Source: a virus
Taxonomy: Duplodnaviria > Heunggongvirae > Uroviricota > Caudoviricetes
Strand: one strand, 5' to 3'
Length of the DNA: 44,950 bases
IMG/VR virus record: IMGVR_UViG_2541047795_000004
Shown here: positions 7,458-21,329 of the stretch, in pieces
Layout of the letters: every line of letters begins with the position of its first letter
Numbering within the stretch: position 1 is the stretch's first letter
Translations under genes and position numbers: made by a program
Notes under the pieces: generated by a model
Told to the model about the DNA's origin: nothing
Database searches by the model: none
The model's input: the letters and a program-made list of their open reading frames with translations, nothing else

Positions 7458-7744
7458 CTTATCTATCCCCTTAACGCCGGGTGGCGGAACTAACTGCTGC
7501 ACTGCAAAATTTGAATCCCGCCGTCATGTTCATACGCCTCGGGCTGGCTACTTAACCCCTGACCACTGCCTGGTAACTCGAAGTATTGCCCGGCGTTCTG
7601 TGGGGCGGGGTGGGTTGGTAGGTATATAATGTACTTTGTGTTCATCATTGTAAAGTACTTTAAGTACATTTTATGTATAAAAAAATGAGACGGGATAAAG
7701 TGAAGCACAAACCCGGAGGGGGACGCTACCGGATTTATGCTGGT

Positions 7745-8243: not shown

Positions 8244-8498
8244 ATGAACCAGAAAACACTTGAAGATGTAATCAAAACTGTTCGCGTTTCTGTTGTGGCC
8301 GACGTTTGTGGTGTCAGCCAAAGAGCAATCTACAAATGGATGGATAACGGAAAATTGCCTCGCACAGAATATACCGGCGAAACAAATTACGCTGAAAAAA
8401 TCGCTCATGCATCAAACGGATTATTTTCTGCCGATGCAATTTTAACTATTGGCAGAAATAAAACTACTACGAAAAAGCTGATGGGAGTTGATTCATGA
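8244..8498 (+). CDS. ydaS: Cro-like HTH regulator (YdaS-like); start uncertain (ORF open from 8172)
   Basis: HTH motif VADVCGVSQRAIYKWMDNGKLP; ATG at 8244 has a GAGGA Shine-Dalgarno, whereas the ATG at 8172 would leave only 8 nt to the divergent repressor start. Confidence 0.6.
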   Translation: MNQKTLEDVIKTVRVSVVADVCGVSQRAIYKWMDNGKLPRTEYTGETNYAEKIAHASNGLFSADAILTIGRNKTTTKKLMGVDS

Positions 8499-8917
8499 AA
8501 ATCAAGCATGAGCACATCGAATCAGTGTTGTTAGCCCTGGCAGCCGAAAAAGGGCAGGCGTGGGTCGCTAACGCAATTACTGAAGAATATCTGCACCAGG
8601 GGGGCGGCGAATTGCCCCTGGTACCAGGCAAGGACTGGAACAATCAGCAGAATATCTATCATCGTTGGTTGAAAGGTGAAACGAATGCGCAAAGGGAAAA
8701 AATTCAGAAACTGATCCCTGCGGTTCTGGCAATTCTTCCTCGCGAGCTGCGTCACCGACTCTGCATCTTCGATACCCTGGAACGCCGTGCATTACTGGCG
8801 GCACAGGATGCACTGAGTACGGCAATTGATGCGCATGATGATGCAGTCCAGGCCGTTTACCGTAAAGCACATTTCAGCGGCGGCGGTTCTCCTAGCGATT
8901 CTGTCGTAGTGCATTGA
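8495..8917 (+). CDS. ydaT: YdaT-like protein, 140 aa (possible CII-like regulator or toxin)
   Basis: 140-aa ORF overlapping the Cro-like stop; size and position match YdaT as recalled. Confidence 0.6.
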   Translation: MKIKHEHIESVLLALAAEKGQAWVANAITEEYLHQGGGELPLVPGKDWNNQQNIYHRWLKGETNAQREKIQKLIPAVLAILPRELRHRLCIFDTLERRALLAAQDALSTAIDAHDDAVQAVYRKAHFSGGGSPSDSVVVH

Positions 8918-8961
8918 TTGAAATTAATCGTACCGAACTGTTTTGTTCGGTATCAGTTAAA

Positions 8962-8982
8962 TGTAACGCTGCGAGCGTTACA
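8962..8982. repeat. 21-bp palindrome TGTAACGC-N5-GCGTTACA, copy 1
   Basis: Perfect 8-5-8 inverted repeat read directly from the sequence, just upstream of the replication gene start. Confidence 0.7.
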
Positions 8983-9153
8983 AGGTGAAAACAAATGGCT
9001 TCAAACTGGATAAAGCTCGAAGTTATTACGCCGGATAAGCCGGAAATATTCAGGCTTGCTGAGATTCTGAATATTGATCCAGATGCCGCATTAGGGAAAG
9101 TCATTCGCTTCTGGGCATGGGCGGATCAACAAATGATAGACGGTAACGCAGAG

Positions 9154-9174
9154 TGTAACGCTCGAGGCGTTACA
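9154..9174. repeat. 21-bp palindrome TGTAACGC-N5-GCGTTACA, copy 2
   Basis: Perfect 8-5-8 inverted repeat inside the replication gene; a GGTAACGC half-site lies at 9142-9149. Confidence 0.7.
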
Positions 9175-9361
9175 AAAAGTGCAATAGACCGTATCACTTT
9201 TATGGCTGGTTTTGCTGATGCGTTAATTCAGGTTGGATGGCTGGTCGAAAGTGATGGAGTGCTTTCACTACCAAACTTTGAGCGTCATAACGGAAAAAGC
9301 TCGAAAAAAACGGGCGGTTACAAACGAGAGAGTTACAAAAATACGCGAACTGAAGCGAAAA

Positions 9362-9382
9362 GGTAACGCTGCCAGCGTTACA
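9362..9382. repeat. 21-bp palindrome GTAACGC-N7-GCGTTAC, copy 3
   Basis: Same half-sites as copies 1 and 2; further GTTACAAA and GCGTTACC half-sites nearby (9317-9340, 9398-9406). Confidence 0.65.
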
Positions 9383-9790
9383 CAAACGGATCAAAAAGCG
9401 TTACCAGAGGAAGAGGAAGAGGAAGATATAAATACTGATCTCCCCCTAAATCCCCCTCGGCAAAAACGAGCGTCTAAACAATTCGAGCCGGAGGCCATTG
9501 CTCTGCCCGACTGGTTGCCAGAAACACTCTGGAATGAGTGGGTCCAGTTCAGGCAGGCATTGCGAAAACCGATTCGAACGGAGCAGGGCGCTAACGGGGC
9601 GATACGGGAACTGGAAAAATTCCGCCAGCAGGGTTTTACCCCTGAGCAGGTGATTCGACACAGCATCGCCAATGAATACCAGGGCTTGTTCGCGCCGAAA
9701 AGTGTTCGGCCTGAGACGTTGCTCCGACAGGTTAACACTGTCTCGTTTCCGGACAGTGCGATCCCGCCAGGCTTCAGGGGGTAACTGACC

Positions 9791-10537
9791 ATGAAAAATA
9801 TTGCGACAGGCGGCGTTCTGGAACGTATCCGCAGACTGGCCCCGCCACATGTAACCGCGCCATTCAGGACGGTGGCGGAGTGGCGCGAGTGGCAACTTGC
9901 AGAAGGCCAGAAACGTTGCGAGGAGATCAATCGCCAGAATCGTCAGTTGCGGGTGGAAAAAATTCTGAATCGCTCCGGCATCCAGCCGTTGCACCGCAAA
10001 TGCTCGTTTTCGAATTACCAGGTGCAGAACGACGGCCAGCGATACGCGTTGAGCCAGGCGAAATCCATCGCCGATGAACTGATGGTCGGGTGTACAAATT
10101 TTGCGTTTAGCGGAAAACCTGGTACCGGAAAAAACCATCTGGCGGCGGCTATCGGGAATCGCCTGCTGAAAAACGGTCAGACAGTGATTGTGGTTACCGT
10201 GGCTGATGTTATGAGTGCTCTACACGCCAGCTATGACGACGGGCAATCAGGCGAAAAATTTTTGCGGGAACTGTGCGAAGTGGATCTGCTGGTTCTTGAT
10301 GAAATTGGCATTCAGCGCGAGACAAAAAACGAGCAGGTGGTACTGCACCAGATTGTTGATCGCCGGACAGCGTCGATCCGCAGCGTGGGGATGCTGACAA
10401 ACCTGAACTATGAGGCCATGAAAACATTGCTCGGCGAGAGGATTATGGATCGGATGACCATGAACGGCGGGCGATGGGTGAATTTTAACTGGGAGAGCTG
10501 GCGCCCGAATGTTGGTCAGCCAGGAATTGAGAAGTAA
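9791..10537 (+). CDS. ydaV: DnaC-like helicase loader (IstB-like AAA+ ATPase, YdaV-like)
   Basis: Walker A SGKPGTGKNHLAAAIG and Walker B DLLVLDEIG; directly follows the initiator-like gene. Confidence 0.85.
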   Translation: MKNIATGGVLERIRRLAPPHVTAPFRTVAEWREWQLAEGQKRCEEINRQNRQLRVEKILNRSGIQPLHRKCSFSNYQVQNDGQRYALSQAKSIADELMVGCTNFAFSGKPGTGKNHLAAAIGNRLLKNGQTVIVVTVADVMSALHASYDDGQSGEKFLRELCEVDLLVLDEIGIQRETKNEQVVLHQIVDRRTASIRSVGMLTNLNYEAMKTLLGERIMDRMTMNGGRWVNFNWESWRPNVGQPGIEK

Positions 10538-11884: not shown

Positions 11885-12403
11885 ATGGAAATAACTAAAG
11901 AACGATTATTGGAAATAGCAAATCTTAGTGATGGGGCATTAAGTGATGGGAGAATTATTTCTCCTGATGCTTATGAATCAGTTACAAGTATAGAAATAAT
12001 AACGATGGCTAGGATGCTTCTTGCGCGATTCAAAAAAGAATATAAAAAACAGGTAGATAGCAATGCTAATATATATGATATTTTGGACGGTTGGGGAGCC
12101 TGGGCTGTAGCTGAAAATAGTTCTATTGATTGGCAGGAAATAGCTGATAAATATAAAAATGTTGTTCCTCATGGTAAAAAATCACGTCGTCAGTGCAGCA
12201 ATGATGAAGGGGGTATAATTGATACCTGCATGTTGAGGCTTAAACAATATAGGATAGATGACTATGAGTTAATTATCGCTCATTTTGTTATGGGAGTTTC
12301 ATTGCGTTGTTTAGCTAAGATAAACGAATGTTCAGATGGTAAAATAAGGAAAAAAATGCAAATGGCAATGGGATTTATTGCAGGTTGTATCTATTACCGT
12401 TGA
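11885..12403 (+). CDS. Q-like antiterminator paralog (QuuD/phage-82-type resemblance), AT-rich
   Basis: WGAW motif followed by a Cys-containing segment and a C-terminal helix, parallel to the Q gene at 16732; GGTGGAG Shine-Dalgarno before the ATG at 11885. Confidence 0.45.
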   Translation: MEITKERLLEIANLSDGALSDGRIISPDAYESVTSIEIITMARMLLARFKKEYKKQVDSNANIYDILDGWGAWAVAENSSIDWQEIADKYKNVVPHGKKSRRQCSNDEGGIIDTCMLRLKQYRIDDYELIIAHFVMGVSLRCLAKINECSDGKIRKKMQMAMGFIAGCIYYR

Positions 12404-12433
12404 TTTTTTAAGGCGAGTTTCTCTCGCCTTAAA

Positions 12434-13867
12434 TTAACTACAGTAACTATTGATTAAGTGAGAACTGAGCCAAGAGGTAATTGCATTCGTAGCATGTTCA
12501 TCAAGCATTGAGAATCCTAATATGATCATTATAAATGAAATCAGCAAAGTCAGAATCACAACGAATGTGGCTATAATCTGATAAGCTTTGTATGCTTCTC
12601 TTAATGGTGTGACTGCAAGATTCTCATAGTCAGTATCATCAAGAAAACCATATAGTTTATCTCTCCAGACTAGCCTAGTATTATCAAGTATCTTAAAGTA
12701 ATTTTTATTTATGAAGAGAGTTGTAACCTGAGATATAAAAATATATATAGATAACGCGAAGAACATATATGGGAATATGTTATTGGTTATATTAATCTTT
12801 GATGCGTCTAGCGCATATTTTATTGCAAATAGACTTATAACCAGAGCCAGATCTTTCCAAAGAGCGGATGTGATGTCTTTAGACTGACTTATTATTTTTT
12901 GCGTGTCTTCAGCTAAGGTTTTCCTTAGATCGGACAGAGATTTAATAGTCTCTCTGCTGCTAGCGCGAATGTGGGCCTTATATAGTAATTTTGCTGACTC
13001 AAAGGCCATAGGGAGTTTTTTTGGTAAACCCTCACAGAAGGATACATACTCTGGCCATTCTCGTGCTAACTCACTTGTGAAGAAAGTATGTTTGAGTTCA
13101 ATCTCATTGCCCTCAATAAAGATCCAGTTTATTACAGTTTGTAAAACTGAATAGTCGGAAAGCAGAATGTCTGGATCTCCATAAATTAATTTTTTTGGTG
13201 GCTTTCCAGTTAAACAAATTGATTTCTTTTCATCTGCTAATAATTCATTAACGAGAGTGCGACAAAGCATATTGCAGGAAACTTGTAACCATTTTTTGAA
13301 AAAGTTGTCCTCTGCCTCAGGCATTTTATAAAGTACCCAAGGAGCTATATCAGATGCAGGCATGAACTCACTAGAATAGAATTTAACGTAGCTCTGTAAA
13401 TTGATTGAAGTTCGTACGGTTTCATTAGATTCAATTTTTTCTGGAGCATGGTTCCATGGCTCAACAGAATATCCTAAAGTTTCAAATCCATGTTTCAAAC
13501 CGAGAATATTCACTTTATTGGTTATTGATACTAAATCATCATTGTGTAGAAAAACATTCCACCCTTCGAGCGTAAAAATATACCTGTTATTTTCGAATGC
13601 AATGCATTTTAGCGTAATGTTAAGTTTATCACCTTCACTGCATGACGATGGTTTTACTTCATCATTACAGTCATCTTTAACAGTAATTTCAATCCAATTT
13701 GGTACGTTTTCGTAAACGTACTGCCAAAGAATGAGTGCATCTTTGTCCATTTTGGCAGAAATTAGAACGCGCGCAGAATCATTTTTTATTGATTCTGATG
13801 CCAAAAATTCAGGGTCTTTCCTTGACGCCTGTATAGACTCATCGATTTTTTGAAGTATCGATGTCAT
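12434..13867 (-). CDS. Cassette gene B: uncharacterised 477-aa protein, large soluble N-terminal domain plus C-terminal transmembrane helices
   Basis: Hydrophobic helices IFPYMFFALSIYIFISQVTTLFI and IIATFVVILTLLISFIMIILGFSML near the C-terminus; GAGGA Shine-Dalgarno 10 nt before the ATG at 13867; overlaps gene A by 29 nt; AT-rich. Confidence 0.7.
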   Translation of the reverse strand: MTSILQKIDESIQASRKDPEFLASESIKNDSARVLISAKMDKDALILWQYVYENVPNWIEITVKDDCNDEVKPSSCSEGDKLNITLKCIAFENNRYIFTLEGWNVFLHNDDLVSITNKVNILGLKHGFETLGYSVEPWNHAPEKIESNETVRTSINLQSYVKFYSSEFMPASDIAPWVLYKMPEAEDNFFKKWLQVSCNMLCRTLVNELLADEKKSICLTGKPPKKLIYGDPDILLSDYSVLQTVINWIFIEGNEIELKHTFFTSELAREWPEYVSFCEGLPKKLPMAFESAKLLYKAHIRASSRETIKSLSDLRKTLAEDTQKIISQSKDITSALWKDLALVISLFAIKYALDASKINITNNIFPYMFFALSIYIFISQVTTLFINKNYFKILDNTRLVWRDKLYGFLDDTDYENLAVTPLREAYKAYQIIATFVVILTLLISFIMIILGFSMLDEHATNAITSWLSSHLINSYCS

Positions 13868-14897
13868 CAGTAATAATCCTCGCAGTAGTAACAATAATTT
13901 GTTTTCGCCCATCATCTAAGTTTCTTATTTCTGGACGGTCATCTTCATTATAACTAATTACTACACTTTCTGCAGTTTCAATTTTTCGTCTTGGTGGTTT
14001 ATGAATGCCATCTGCTTTTATAGTAAAGGATTCGCCTTCAATACCAGCATTTTTTGTTTGAGTTTTGAATGTGTTGAGAATTGGTGATTTTTCATCTAAC
14101 GGCCCAAAAATGCTGGTCAATAACGGAGAAGCATCTTCAGGATTATATTCGAAATCAGCTCTGCTTAAAACTTCATATATTTTATTTACGCCGCTTTTTT
14201 GAATTGACTCTGGCAATAATTCTTTATGCCTTTTGAAGGTTATTTTCAGCGCATCAATAAGCTTATTGCAAAGTTCAATTTCAGAGTTGACTCTTTTAAC
14301 ATTTAAGAAGCCTTTAAAATATCCTGAAATATTGGTTCTTTTACTCCTGTCTTTTACAATAACTTTCCCGCCTTTCCCACTTGGATCAAGTTGAATTAAC
14401 GCTATTTTTTGCATTGCCTCAGCTTTTTTTACGAAAGTTTCATGAAATCTTTCTAAAGTAGGCATTTGTTCTTCAGATAACTTTTCGTCAAGAACATAAC
14501 GAACCACATCTTCATTATCGTATTTTATAATTGCATAGAATTTTTCCTTATCTGAAACCAATTCAAATAAGAAAAAGCATCCCATACTCGTGTTACCGCT
14601 AGAATGGTGTGACTGAAAATCACTGGCCAGTAGCTTCGATTGTTCTGTAAAACAATTAGCTTCAGCATCTGCTTTATCTCTAATGATACGCAGGATTCTT
14701 TCGGTATTTGAATTCTCCAGAAAAGTGAAAAGATTTCCTTTCAGTGAAGATTTGATACGTTCAAGAAAAAAATCCACATGCTGAACTGGTTTTATTTCTT
14801 TGAGAAGTGTCGGTGCTTCAAGATTCTTACCTACAACGTGAAAGATCATTTTATTAATGACTAAATTTTGTACGTCTTGTTCAGAAAGGAAACTCAT
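13839..14897 (-). CDS. Cassette gene A: uncharacterised 352-aa cytoplasmic protein, tentative weak resemblance to NA37/YejK-type nucleoid-associated proteins
   Basis: GGAG Shine-Dalgarno before the ATG at 14897; no transmembrane segment; the NA37 resemblance is by eye only and unverified. Confidence 0.7.
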   Translation of the reverse strand: MSFLSEQDVQNLVINKMIFHVVGKNLEAPTLLKEIKPVQHVDFFLERIKSSLKGNLFTFLENSNTERILRIIRDKADAEANCFTEQSKLLASDFQSHHSSGNTSMGCFFLFELVSDKEKFYAIIKYDNEDVVRYVLDEKLSEEQMPTLERFHETFVKKAEAMQKIALIQLDPSGKGGKVIVKDRSKRTNISGYFKGFLNVKRVNSEIELCNKLIDALKITFKRHKELLPESIQKSGVNKIYEVLSRADFEYNPEDASPLLTSIFGPLDEKSPILNTFKTQTKNAGIEGESFTIKADGIHKPPRRKIETAESVVISYNEDDRPEIRNLDDGRKQIIVTTARIITDDIDTSKNR

Positions 14898-15226
14898 CCT
14901 GACTCCATAATCAAGCAGATTAGAACTATGACTAGTCTAGTATATGCATCTTTTGGTGCGTACGCAAAAGTTCTTAAACTCAAAATGTTATCGCGGATAG
15001 ATCTTTGTAGAGTCAGTGATTGGCGCAGGTAGGTGGTAACAGCAGACAAATAGCTGCGGATACTTGAGGCTATCTGCCTCGGGCATGAACATCAAAGGCA
15101 GATAGAGAAAAGCCCCAGTTAACATTACGCATCCGGCAAGACGCTTAACATTAATCTGAGGCCAATTTCATGCTTTGCACATGTAGGTTAGCCTCTTACG
15201 TGCCGAAAGGCAAGGAGAAGCAGGCT

Positions 15227-15382
15227 ATGAAGCAGCAAAAGGCGATGTTAGTCGCCCTGATCGTCATCTGTTTAACCGTTATAGTGACGGTACTGGTAAC
15301 GAGGAAAGACCTCTGCGAGGTACGAATCCGAACCGACCAGACGGAGGTCGCTGTCTTCACAGCTTACGAACTTGGGGAGTAA
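15227..15382 (+). CDS. hok: Hok/Gef-family type I toxin, 51 aa
   Basis: MKQQKAMLVALIVICLTVIVTVLVTRKDLCEVRIRTDQTEVAVFTAYE is a Hok-family sequence with one transmembrane helix; a 7-bp stem-loop follows at about 15389-15407. Confidence 0.8.
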   Translation: MKQQKAMLVALIVICLTVIVTVLVTRKDLCEVRIRTDQTEVAVFTAYELGE

Positions 15383-17627: not shown

Positions 17628-17703
<76 letters not shown>

Positions 17704-17706
17704 TAT

Positions 17707-17781
<75 letters not shown>

Positions 17782-19871: not shown

Positions 19872-21329
19872 ATGAATACATCTCATGTAAGAGTTGTTAC
19901 TCATATGTGTGGGTTCCTGGTTTGGCTCTATAGTCTTTCAATGTTGCCACCAATGGTTGTAGCATTGTTTTATAAAGAAAAAAGCCTGTTCGTTTTCTTT
20001 ATAACTTTCGTTATATTTTTTTGCATTGGTGGCGGAGCGTGGTATACAACTAAGAAATCTGGCATTCAATTACGTACCCGTGATGGGTTTATTATAATTG
20101 TAATGTTTTGGATTTTGTTTTCTGTTATTAGTGCATTCCCTTTATGGATTGACTCAGAACTTAATTTAACGTTCATTGATGCTCTGTTTGAAGGGGTTTC
20201 TGGAATAACAACAACAGGAGCAACTGTAATTGATGATGTTAGTTCATTACCTCGGGCATATTTGTACTATCGGTCACAGTTAAATTTTATAGGTGGTTTA
20301 GGAGTTATTGTTCTGGCGGTTGCTGTATTGCCATTATTGGGTATTGGTGGTGCAAAGCTTTATCAGTCAGAAATGCCGGGGCCATTTAAGGATGACAAAC
20401 TCACTCCCCGCCTGGCCGATACGTCACGGACACTGTGGATAACTTATTCTTTATTAGGTATTGCTTGTATTGTCTGTTATAGACTTGCAGGAATGCCTTT
20501 GTTTGATGCTATTTGTCACGGGATTTCCACAGTTTCGCTTGGTGGTTTCTCAACTCATAGCGAGAGTATCGGATATTTTAATAACTATTTGGTTGAGCTG
20601 GTGGCTGGTTCTTTTTCCCTGCTATCGGCTTTCAACTTCACTCTTTGGTATATTGTTATTAGCAGGAAAACGATAAAACCTTTAATCAGAGATATTGAAC
20701 TTCGTTTCTTTCTGTTAATAGCCTTAGGGGTGATCATTGTTACCTCTTTCCAGGTCTGGCATATAGGTATGTATGACTTGCATGGAAGTTTTATTCATTC
20801 GTTTTTTCTTGCCAGCTCCATGCTCACTGATAATGGTTTAGCTACGCAGGATTATGCAAACTGGCCCACGCACACGATAGTGTTTTTGCTGTTGTCAAGT
20901 TTCTTTGGGGGATGTATAGGTTCAACTTGTGGTGGAATTAAGTCACTTCGATTTCTTATACTTTTCAAACAAAGCAAACACGAGATAAATCAGCTTTCTC
21001 ATCCCAGAGCGTTGTTGAGTGTAAATGTAGGAGGGAAGATAGTTACAGATCGTGTAATGAGGTCTGTATGGAGTTTCTTTTTTCTTTATACTCTCTTCAC
21101 GGTGTTTTTTATACTGGTGTTAAATGGTATGGGATATGATTTTCTTACATCATTTGCAACAGTGGCTGCATGTATTAATAATATGGGATTAGGTTTTGGG
21201 GCTACTGCATCGTCATTCGGAGTGCTTAATGACATTGCAAAATATTTAATGTGCATAGCTATGATTCTTGGTCGCCTTGAAATTTATCCTGTTATTATAT
21301 TGTTTTCAGGTTTTTTTTGGCGCTCCTAA
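19872..21329 (+). CDS. trkG: TrkG potassium-uptake membrane protein (moron)
   Basis: 485-aa polytopic membrane protein from MNTSHVRVVTHMCGFLVWLYS, matching TrkG as recalled; AT-rich with AT-rich flanks. Confidence 0.9.
   Translation: MNTSHVRVVTHMCGFLVWLYSLSMLPPMVVALFYKEKSLFVFFITFVIFFCIGGGAWYTTKKSGIQLRTRDGFIIIVMFWILFSVISAFPLWIDSELNLTFIDALFEGVSGITTTGATVIDDVSSLPRAYLYYRSQLNFIGGLGVIVLAVAVLPLLGIGGAKLYQSEMPGPFKDDKLTPRLADTSRTLWITYSLLGIACIVCYRLAGMPLFDAICHGISTVSLGGFSTHSESIGYFNNYLVELVAGSFSLLSAFNFTLWYIVISRKTIKPLIRDIELRFFLLIALGVIIVTSFQVWHIGMYDLHGSFIHSFFLASSMLTDNGLATQDYANWPTHTIVFLLLSSFFGGCIGSTCGGIKSLRFLILFKQSKHEINQLSHPRALLSVNVGGKIVTDRVMRSVWSFFFLYTLFTVFFILVLNGMGYDFLTSFATVAACINNMGLGFGATASSFGVLNDIAKYLMCIAMILGRLEIYPVIILFSGFFWRS

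What the first reader, a model, noticed from the sequence alone, without database searches (positions are those of the whole stretch)
9304..9310. Frame break at an A7 homopolymer inside the replication initiator-like gene
Frame 1 reads ...PNFERHNGKSSKK and stops at 9366, while frame 2 continues sensibly ...KKRAVTNERVTKIRELKRKG... to 9784. Deleting one A from the A7 run (9304-9310) restores a single 262-aa ORF. This is either a genuine inactivating slip, a sequencing error at a homopolymer, or a recoding site.
Basis: seen in the sequence. Interest (0 to 1): 0.45.

Follow-up and report, generated by a model that had tools for sequence, protein, structure and literature searches.

The report
Frameshifted prophage replication initiator pseudogene
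One extra A in a run of six has broken the replication-initiator gene (ydaU family) of a Rac-type prophage of E. coli; it is a real, inherited mutation that RefSeq annotation already flags as 'frameshifted', so it is ordinary prophage decay and not a recoding signal.

Summary
A7 lies at 9304-9310. Frame 1 (8995-9366) ends after 123 aa, frame 2 runs on to 9784, and removing one A gives a 262-aa ORF.

The intact form is the norm:
- 80 of 80 viral-contig homologues, and distant homologues from five other genera of Enterobacterales, are single ORFs carrying AAA-AAA at this site.
- The repaired protein matches phrog_2509 (replication initiation protein) end to end.

The A7 allele is not a sequencing error:
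- It is in 14 complete E. coli records, and eight genomes from seven countries share a near-identical host flank.
- Its exact 123-aa product is on 323 public contigs.
- PGAP marks the gene 'frameshifted' in all five A7 records I inspected.

It is not a recoding site:
- The two-ORF layout is not conserved.
- The same background also carries A8.
- No stimulatory signal is present.
- A7 is below the run length at which E. coli RNA polymerase slips.

The shift falls at codon 105. That is just after a predicted folded N-terminal domain, so a conserved basic motif, the linker and a DnaT-like C-terminal domain are lost.

The A tract is a mutational hotspot: A7 recurs in at least three other backgrounds, and ydaU carries several other independent lesions.

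The verdict is an ordinary, already-annotated pseudogene.

The parts
8995..9784 (+). ydaU-family phage replication initiator gene, inactivated by a +1 insertion (pseudogene)
   Evidence: PGAP annotates this exact interval as a CDS pseudogene 'frameshifted' in Ecol_316; the corresponding ydaU interval is likewise flagged 'frameshifted' in THO-008, EcPNK004, JSWP006 and 300033. The repaired ORF matches phrog_2509 over residues 1-262 at E=3e-89.
9304..9310 (+). A7 homopolymer; the ancestral state is A6 (codons AAA AAA = Lys104 Lys105)
   Evidence: Alignment of the window with A6 alleles. All 80 IMG/VR homologues and the distant Enterobacterales homologues carry TCN AAA AAA CGN in frame.
8995..9366 (+). 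Frame-1 product: 105 native residues (the whole predicted folded N-terminal domain) plus 18 out-of-frame residues, then a stop
   Evidence: The AlphaFold2 model places the folded N-domain at about residues 10-96. The exact 123-aa product is on 323 public contigs.
9311..9784 (+). Frame-2 remainder, now untranslated: conserved basic motif RAxTNxRV, acidic linker, and DnaT-like C-terminal domain ending in IPPGFRG
   Evidence: R106, A107, T109, R112 and V113 are invariant in a 30-sequence alignment. Residues 170-262 match PDB 2ru8, the DnaT C-terminal domain, at E=4.8e-4. No ATG lies in this frame downstream of the run, and the only TTG/GTG codons lack a Shine-Dalgarno sequence.
9791..10537 (+). 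ydaV, a DnaC-like helicase loader and the downstream partner gene; intact, with its own AGGGGG Shine-Dalgarno
   Evidence: Pfam IstB_IS21 at E=1.4e-19. NCBIfam PRK12377 at 504.6 bits and DnaC at 304.4 bits. The sequence was read.
8963..8981 (.). Palindrome 1, GTAACGC-N5-GCGTTAC, upstream of the start codon (14 nt between its end and the ATG); candidate initiator-binding or origin site (inferred)
   Evidence: Only three such sites occur in the 44.9-kb window, against 0.03 expected. The half-sites are conserved at the same relative position in most of the homologue loci checked.
9155..9173 (.). Palindrome 2, inside the N-domain coding sequence (encodes CNARGVT)
9363..9381 (.). Palindrome 3, in the linker coding sequence (encodes GNAASVT in frame 2); the frame-1 stop TAA at 9364-9366 lies inside it
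9407..9424 (+). GAG/GAA Glu-codon repeat (EEEEEE in frame 2), length-polymorphic among alleles
   Evidence: A 6-nt deletion is present in 300033 (A7) and in LH10-b-1 (A6). CB209's 795-nt match length implies the same deletion.

Best explanation
Replication slippage added one A to an A6 tract (Lys-Lys codons) in the ydaU-family replication-initiator gene of a full-length Rac-type prophage integrated next to ttcA. The mutation is real, was fixed in one E. coli lineage, and is inherited vertically.

Translation now leaves the native frame after Lys105 and stops 18 codons later. The product keeps the predicted folded N-terminal domain, which is inferred to bind the origin. It loses a conserved basic motif, the linker, and the DnaT-like C-terminal domain that is inferred to recruit the DnaB helicase with the YdaV (DnaC-like) loader. 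The prophage is therefore predicted to be unable to start its own replication after induction.

Shown: the insertion, its heritability, the single-ORF ancestral state, and the position of the domain boundary. Inferred: the function of each domain and the replication-defective phenotype.
For: (1) The A6 allele is otherwise identical and is a single 262-aa ORF, WP_001326319.1, 'phage replication initiator YdaU family protein'.

(2) All 80 IMG/VR homologues are single ORFs of 262-265 aa with an in-frame AAAAAA. Homologues from Mixta, Erwinia, Samsonia, Pantoea and Pectobacterium also read through the site. The 30-sequence protein alignment has invariant residues on both sides of the site.

(3) The repaired protein matches phrog_2509 over residues 1-262 at E=3e-89.

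(4) A 91-nt probe found A7 in 14 of 66 matching complete-genome records. Eight A7 genomes (USA/Puerto Rico, Japan, Texas, Australia, Thailand, Mozambique, Germany) share a 10,960-nt host flank with 0-2 SNPs. Two A6 strains differ by 1.7-1.9% there, and the A6 strain CH4796 shares the flank with 1 SNP. THO-008 and STN0717-11 are ST393 (PMC8709547).

(5) The exact 123-aa product is on 323 public contigs from NCBI, JGI, Logan and ENA.

(6) PGAP flags the gene 'frameshifted' in all five A7 records inspected.

(7) The tract drifts. A8 occurs in the same background, with the left arm 100% identical over 8,994 nt. A7 recurs in other backgrounds where ydaU is 96-99% identical and, for the three loci that include it (L117-L119), host ttcA about 98% identical.

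(8) The AlphaFold2 model has a folded N-domain at about 10-96, low confidence over 97-160, and a helical C-domain at 161-236. The C-domain matches the DnaT C-terminal domain at E=4.8e-4.
Against: The raw reads of the isolate that gave this window were not available. Inactivation of replication was not tested. A small amount of full-length protein from rare slippage cannot be excluded. Apart from this gene, PGAP flags no pseudogene in the matching 45-kb stretch of Ecol_316, so it is not obvious why this gene alone should have decayed; this could simply mean the mutation is recent. The 11-kb host flank is a limited proxy for clonality, and sequence type is documented for only two strains.
Confidence: 0.93

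Rival explanations
1. The extra A is a homopolymer sequencing or assembly error, and the real sequence is A6.
For: A/T homopolymers are the classic site of indel errors in long-read assemblies. The reads of this isolate were not inspected.
Against: The same A7 is present in 14 complete-genome records, including genomes from seven countries. Ecol_316 is among them; its plasmid was assembled from PacBio reads (PMC5517641). The exact truncated product is on 323 contigs from NCBI, JGI, ENA and Logan assemblies. The allele tracks a single host lineage, which is what a heritable variant does and what random error does not.
Confidence: 0.02
2. The A7 run is a programmed recoding site. Either a +1 ribosomal frameshift or transcriptional slippage (loss of one A, or gain of two) yields full-length initiator from two overlapping ORFs.
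For: The shift needed is +1 at a Lys-codon A run, and tRNA-Lys is known to be slippery on A runs. E. coli genes do use A or T runs for slippage, for example the cases reviewed in PMC1088944.
Against: The two-ORF layout is not conserved: every homologue outside the mutant alleles is a single ORF. The tract length is not held, since A8, which is also out of frame, occurs in the same background. There is no in-frame stop at the shift site and no Shine-Dalgarno-like element just upstream. The first 33 nt downstream are unstructured, and the only stem is the palindrome about 52 nt away; the fold z-score is -1.6. E. coli RNA polymerase needs at least 7 T, and more than 7 A, to bypass indels (PMC6260861). 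Selection against runs in bacterial genes typically sets in at 9 nt (PMC1088944).
Confidence: 0.03
3. This is a functional split gene, in which the N-domain and C-domain are made as two separate active proteins.
For: The break falls between two predicted domains. The two domains also occur with other partners in other genomes: loci L013-L015, L018 and L024 match the C-domain only, and L017, L019 and L021 match the N-domain only.
Against: Frame 2 has no ATG downstream of the run. The remaining TTG/GTG codons (9515, 9560, 9650 and beyond) lack a Shine-Dalgarno sequence and would truncate the C-domain. The invariant motif R106-V113 is lost from both products. No homologue has this arrangement.
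Confidence: 0.01
4. The A tract is a reversible on/off switch (contingency locus) for prophage replication competence.
For: A6, A7 and A8 all occur in nature, A7 in at least three or four backgrounds. The AAA-AAA codon pair is retained across several genera of Enterobacterales.
Against: Tracts of 6-8 nt are short for phase variation in a mismatch-repair-proficient E. coli (general knowledge). All eight sampled genomes of the lineage kept A7. AAA is the preferred Lys codon in enterobacteria, so conservation of AAA-AAA is expected without selection. ydaU is also hit by unrelated lesions elsewhere, which looks like decay and not switching.
Confidence: 0.03

Closest known systems
YdaU-family phage replication initiator (RefSeq WP_001326319.1; phrog_2509) of Rac-type prophages
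   Same: The sequence is 100% identical apart from the one inserted A. The gene order is the same, ydaT - ydaU - ydaV (DnaC-like) - DUF1627 - DUF977.
   Different: Here the gene is a pseudogene, with translation ending after 123 aa.
Phage lambda O protein with ori-lambda inside the O gene
   Same: Both are two-domain initiators with an N-terminal DNA-binding part, a flexible linker and a C-terminal part that brings in the helicase-loading partner. Both have repeated binding-site-like sequences inside their own gene. Here these are three conserved palindromes at 8963, 9155 and 9363. phrog_678, 'replication initiation O-like', matches residues 85-237 at E=1.5e-25.
   Different: There is no Pfam lambda-O match. 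The sites are 19-bp palindromes about 200 bp apart, not four clustered iterons. The partner is a DnaC-like ATPase, not lambda P. Binding was not tested.
E. coli DnaT (primosomal protein i) C-terminal domain and the dnaT-dnaC operon
   Same: Residues 170-262 align to the DnaT C-terminal domain, including the terminal PDSxIPPGFRG (PDB 2ru8 at E=4.8e-4; 9zbt_D at E=1.3e-3). As with dnaT and dnaC, the gene sits directly upstream of a DnaC-type loader (PMC5778457).
   Different: Only the C-terminal domain is related. The NCBIfam DnaT model scores 16.7 bits against a cut-off of 201. The N-terminal domain is unrelated.
Slippage-dependent genes with homopolymer runs (Thermus thermophilus dnaX A9, Shigella mxiE T9, IS elements)
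   Same: Two overlapping frames are joined at an A run.
   Different: Those runs are 8-9 nt or longer and are conserved among homologues together with the two-frame layout (PMC1088944). Here the run is 7 nt, the layout is confined to mutant alleles, and the tract length drifts.

Membership tests
YdaU-family phage replication initiator (phrog_2509) | End-to-end sequence match to the family profile | tested here: met
   The repaired 262-aa ORF matches profile positions 1-277 of 277 at E=3e-89. It is 100% identical to WP_001326319.1.
YdaU-family phage replication initiator (phrog_2509) | Position in the early-right operon, between the ydaT (cII-position) gene and a DnaC-like loader | tested here: met
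   ydaT lies at 8495-8917, the gene at 8995-9784 and ydaV at 9791-10537.
YdaU-family phage replication initiator (phrog_2509) | Uninterrupted reading frame encoding both domains | tested here: not met
   A +1 insertion at 9304-9310 puts a stop at 9364-9366. It is a pseudogene member of the family.
Programmed frameshift or transcriptional-slippage site | Shift site and two-frame layout conserved among homologues | tested here: not met
   80 of 80 IMG/VR homologues, five other genera of Enterobacterales, and all 30 aligned proteins are single ORFs. A8 occurs in the same background.
Programmed frameshift or transcriptional-slippage site | Stimulatory elements: an upstream Shine-Dalgarno-like sequence, a stop or hungry codon at the site, or a nearby downstream structure | tested here: not met
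   The site reads TCG AAA AAA ACG GGC with no stop. No Shine-Dalgarno-like element lies within 10 nt upstream. No structure forms in the first 33 nt downstream, and the fold z-score is -1.6.
Programmed frameshift or transcriptional-slippage site | Run long enough for E. coli RNA polymerase slippage | tested here: not met
   The run is A7. E. coli RNA polymerase needs at least 7 T 'and even more adenine residues' (PMC6260861). Selection against runs typically sets in at 9 nt (PMC1088944). Actual slippage on this template was not measured.
Phase-variable contingency locus | Tract-length polymorphism among close relatives | tested here: met
   A6 (CH4796), A7 and A8 all occur in the same or a near-identical background.
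Phase-variable contingency locus | Frequent, reversible switching within a clone | not testable with these tools
   All eight sampled genomes of the lineage carry A7. Population-level read data would be needed.
DnaT (primosomal protein i) | Full-length match above the NCBIfam equivalog cut-off | tested here: not met
   NF002770 scores 16.7 bits against a cut-off of 201, and only the last 19 residues align. phmmer against the PDB aligns the C-terminal domain only, at E=4.8e-4. This is a shared domain, not membership of the DnaT family.
Winged-helix origin-binding N-domain (lambda O / DnaD-like initiators) | Structural match of the N-domain to a solved winged-helix fold | tested here: inconclusive
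   The best Foldseek matches against the PDB are winged-helix regulators (GntR, CRP/Clr, PrfA, MarR and Sso10a types), but all have E of 0.4 or worse and TM-scores of 0.36 or lower. The N-domain pLDDT is 71-92.

The most novel reading that the evidence does not exclude
The A6/A7/A8 tract could work as a leaky or reversible throttle on prophage replication. Rare polymerase or ribosome slippage, or reversion to A6, would supply just enough full-length initiator for occasional productive induction. Meanwhile the abundant N-domain fragment would occupy the conserved GTAACGC-N5-GCGTTAC sites, blocking in-situ replication or the replication of superinfecting Rac-type phages.
Probability: 0.04. Interest if true: 0.45.

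Novelty: already known. Interest (0 to 1): 0.1.

Why it matters
It matters little beyond annotation. The finding means this otherwise complete-looking 45-kb Rac-type prophage is probably replication-defective in a globally distributed E. coli lineage; the two strains with a published type are ST393. Prophage-prediction tools may therefore score the prophage as 'intact' when it is not. The A tract in ydaU is a recurrent site of inactivation and could serve as a lineage marker. Two by-products may be of more use than the frameshift itself: the conserved palindromes that probably mark the Rac-type origin, and the DnaT-like C-terminal domain of the initiator.

Tried and rejected
- Pfam on both partial ORFs found no family. 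NCBIfam gave only a sub-threshold match to the DnaT tail.
- Foldseek of the AlphaFold2 model against the PDB found nothing significant, only weak winged-helix-type matches.
- I looked for recoding signals and found none: no upstream Shine-Dalgarno-like element, no stop at the shift site, and no downstream structure.
- I looked for an internal restart codon that could express the C-domain separately. None is plausible.
- The promoter and terminator scan of 8850-9850 found no promoter-like site. On the minus strand it found only the palindrome and two other weak stems.
- I asked whether the +1 insertion would disturb the spacing of the candidate origin palindromes. Spacing between palindromes 2 and 3 ranges from 198 to 219 nt among homologues, so one extra nt is unlikely to matter.
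- A literature search for oriJ of Rac gave only a citation to Potrykus et al. 2000 and no sequence-level description in the held library.
- HM24, intended as an A6 control for the host flank, carries the prophage at a different chromosomal site, so it was uninformative.

Full report
**Observation.** The run AAAAAAA lies at exactly 9304-9310. An ATG ORF starts at 8995 and ends at 9366: 123 aa...HNGKSSKKTGGYKRESYKNTRTEAKR*. Frame 2 is open from 9233 to 9784 and reads ...KKRAVTNERVTKIRELKRKG...IPPGFRG*. Removing one A joins them into 262 aa.

**Context.** The window is a full-length Rac-type prophage. It runs from intR, xisR, recET, kilR and sieB, through the repressor, cro-like gene and ydaT, to the gene in question. 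Downstream come the DnaC-like ydaV, DUF1627, DUF977, Q, the lysis genes, terminase, head and tail genes, and the start of a tail-fibre gene.
- It is nearly identical to E. coli Ecol_316 (NZ_CP018957.1, 3621427-3666376). The only differences are one SNP at 7638 and divergence from 35406 onward.
- In that RefSeq record PGAP already annotates 8995-9784 as a pseudogene, 'frameshifted'. The ydaU gene is flagged the same way in THO-008, EcPNK004, JSWP006 and 300033.

**The ancestral state is a single ORF.**
- An allele identical except for A6 is annotated as the 262-aa 'phage replication initiator YdaU family protein', WP_001326319.1.
- All 80 best homologues in IMG/VR are single ORFs of 262-265 aa with in-frame AAAAAA. 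Three have TCA AAA AAA, which is an in-frame A7.
- Homologues from Mixta, Erwinia, Samsonia, Pantoea and Pectobacterium read TCN AAA AAA CGN straight through.
- In a 30-sequence protein alignment H98, N99, G100, K104, R106, A107, T109, R112 and V113 are invariant, so a conserved motif spans the break.
- The 374-380-aa variants common in E. coli and Salmonella keep the same N- and C-terminal parts, with a longer linker, and are also uninterrupted at this site.
- The repaired protein matches phrog_2509, 'replication initiation protein', over its whole length at E=3e-89.

**It is not a sequencing error.**
- A 91-nt probe across the run finds 66 complete E. coli records. Fourteen are 100% identical (A7) and the others are one or two bases shorter.
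- Eight A7 genomes share a 10,960-nt host flank (abgT to ttcA) with 0-2 SNPs. They come from Puerto Rico, Japan (two), Texas, Australia, Thailand, Mozambique and Germany.
- Two A6 strains differ by 1.7-1.9% in that flank. The A6 strain CH4796 shares the flank with one SNP and looks like the ancestral-state sister.
- THO-008 and STN0717-11 are ST393 (PMC8709547).
- The exact 123-aa truncated product is recorded on 323 public contigs from NCBI, JGI, ENA and Logan. The intact 262-aa protein is on at least 1000.
- The variant is therefore heritable and was recovered independently many times.

**It is not a recoding site.**
- Restoring the frame needs a +1 ribosomal shift, or an mRNA with one A fewer or two more.
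- The two-frame layout is absent from every homologue outside the mutant alleles.
- The tract is not maintained. In the window's own background (left arm 100% identical over 8,994 nt, ttcA identical) some assemblies carry A8, which is also out of frame.
- There is no stop or obvious hungry codon at the site, and no Shine-Dalgarno-like element just upstream. The 33 nt downstream are unstructured; the only stem is a palindrome about 52 nt away, and the fold z-score is -1.6.
- E. coli RNA polymerase bypasses indels only on runs of at least 7 T 'and even more adenine residues' (PMC6260861). Selection against slippery runs in bacterial genes typically begins at 9 nt (PMC1088944).
- A trace of full-length protein cannot be excluded, but nothing suggests it is used.

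**A mutational hotspot in a gene that often decays.**
- The same A7 is found in at least three other backgrounds. In these, ydaU is 96-99% identical; the three loci with flanking sequence (L117-L119) also have a different repressor and cro module and a host ttcA about 98% identical.
- Independent lesions elsewhere in ydaU are: GGG to GG three bases downstream of the run in strain 1919D3; a frame change after 'LNP', at the C run at 9442-9446 (P0081); a frameshift that appears in many Shigella flexneri records (P0066, 243 member sequences; L009); and an interruption with unrelated sequence (P0138).
- This is the usual picture of neutral or mildly favoured loss of a prophage replication function.

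**What is lost.**
- The AlphaFold2 model (mean pLDDT 68.6) has three parts: a confident N-terminal domain at about residues 10-96 (helices plus a beta hairpin), a low-confidence stretch at 97-160, and a confident three-helix C-terminal domain at 161-236.
- The C-terminal 93 residues align to the C-terminal domain of E. coli DnaT (PDB 2ru8, E=4.8e-4), including the terminal PDSxIPPGFRG.
- DnaT is required for recruiting DnaB in replication restart, and dnaT lies directly upstream of dnaC (PMC5778457). The pair ydaU and ydaV (DnaC-like) mirrors that arrangement.
- The frameshift at codon 105 therefore leaves the N-domain and removes everything inferred to connect it to helicase loading.
- The fold of the N-domain could not be assigned with confidence. 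Foldseek gave only weak winged-helix-type matches, all with E of 0.4 or worse.
- The predicted consequence is that the prophage can no longer initiate its own replication. This is an inference and was not tested.

**By-product: candidate origin sites.**
- Three perfect GTAACGC-N5-GCGTTAC palindromes lie at 8963, 9155 and 9363. They are the only ones in the window, against 0.03 expected.
- The half-sites recur at the same relative positions in homologous loci from other Enterobacterales and in loci from Planctomycetota and an unclassified Pseudomonadota genome; they are exact in most of these loci, and two copies (in L019 and L020) differ at one base. The 5-nt spacers vary, and protein identity falls to about 50%.
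- This points to a constraint at the DNA level, most simply the initiator's own binding sites, which would make this the prophage origin. The A run lies between sites 2 and 3, but their spacing varies from 198 to 219 nt among homologues, so the extra base is unlikely to matter for the origin.

**Verdict.** This is a real, heritable +1 insertion that makes the Rac-type replication initiator a pseudogene. It is already flagged as such in RefSeq. It is ordinary and of low interest.

Noticed in passing
window 8963-8981, 9155-9173, 9363-9381 (extra half-sites GTTAC at 9317, 9332, 9400): Three perfect GTAACGC-N5-GCGTTAC palindromes sit about 200 bp apart, in and just upstream of ydaU; 0.03 are expected in the window. 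The half-sites are conserved at the same relative positions in homologues down to about 50% protein identity, including loci from Planctomycetota, and are exact in most of them, while the spacers vary. In the protein they appear as 'NAxSVT' peptides, whose copy number varies among homologues. They are likely the initiator's binding sites, which would make this the Rac-type origin.
   Followed up: partly
window 9500-9784 (frame 2), with 9791-10537: The C-terminal domain of the YdaU-family initiator is homologous to the C-terminal domain of the host replication-restart protein DnaT (PDB 2ru8, E=4.8e-4; shared terminal IPPGFRG). The ydaU-ydaV gene pair mirrors the host dnaT-dnaC operon.
   Followed up: partly
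loci L117-L123, L005, L009; proteins P0066, P0081, P0127, P0128, P0133, P0138: ydaU is inactivated repeatedly and independently in E. coli and Shigella. A7 occurs in at least three other backgrounds, and A8 in the window's own background. Other lesions are GGG to GG in strain 1919D3, a frame change at the C run at 9442-9446 (P0081), a frameshift present in many S. flexneri records, and an interruption with unrelated sequence.
   Followed up: partly
window 9407-9424: The GAG/GAA Glu-codon repeat in the linker varies in length among alleles. A 6-nt deletion was seen on an A7 allele (300033) and on an A6 allele (LH10-b-1), and CB209's shorter match implies the same deletion. Other alleles have 264-265 aa. 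The 6-nt change appears to have arisen more than once.
   Followed up: partly
window 35406 onward, and 7638: The window is identical to Ecol_316 up to 35405 apart from one SNP at 7638. It then falls out of base-by-base register, inside the tape-measure gene, so it comes from a different isolate of the lineage. The cause (an indel or a recombined segment) was not resolved.
   Followed up: no
window 11885-15382; compare L117 13052-19639 and L118 12940-17072: The stretch just downstream of the DUF977 gene carries different cargo in related prophages. Here it holds Q, a 477-aa hypothetical protein, an NA37 nucleoid-associated-like protein (minus strand) and hok. L117 has IS1, an IS with an rve integrase, and an nSTAND1 NTPase. 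L118 has an HD-domain protein and an AbiJ_NTD4 protein. It looks like a variable cargo or defence slot.
   Followed up: no
window 17628-17781 and 19872-21329: The prophage carries tRNA-Thr and tRNA-Gly genes. It also carries the potassium transporter gene trkG, between the lysis and packaging modules, as in K-12 Rac.
   Followed up: no
host flank outside the window (L110, L111): The two A7 strains with the shorter ydaU allele (795-nt match), 300033 and CB209, also share an internal stop in abgB, which marks a sub-clade of the lineage.
   Followed up: no
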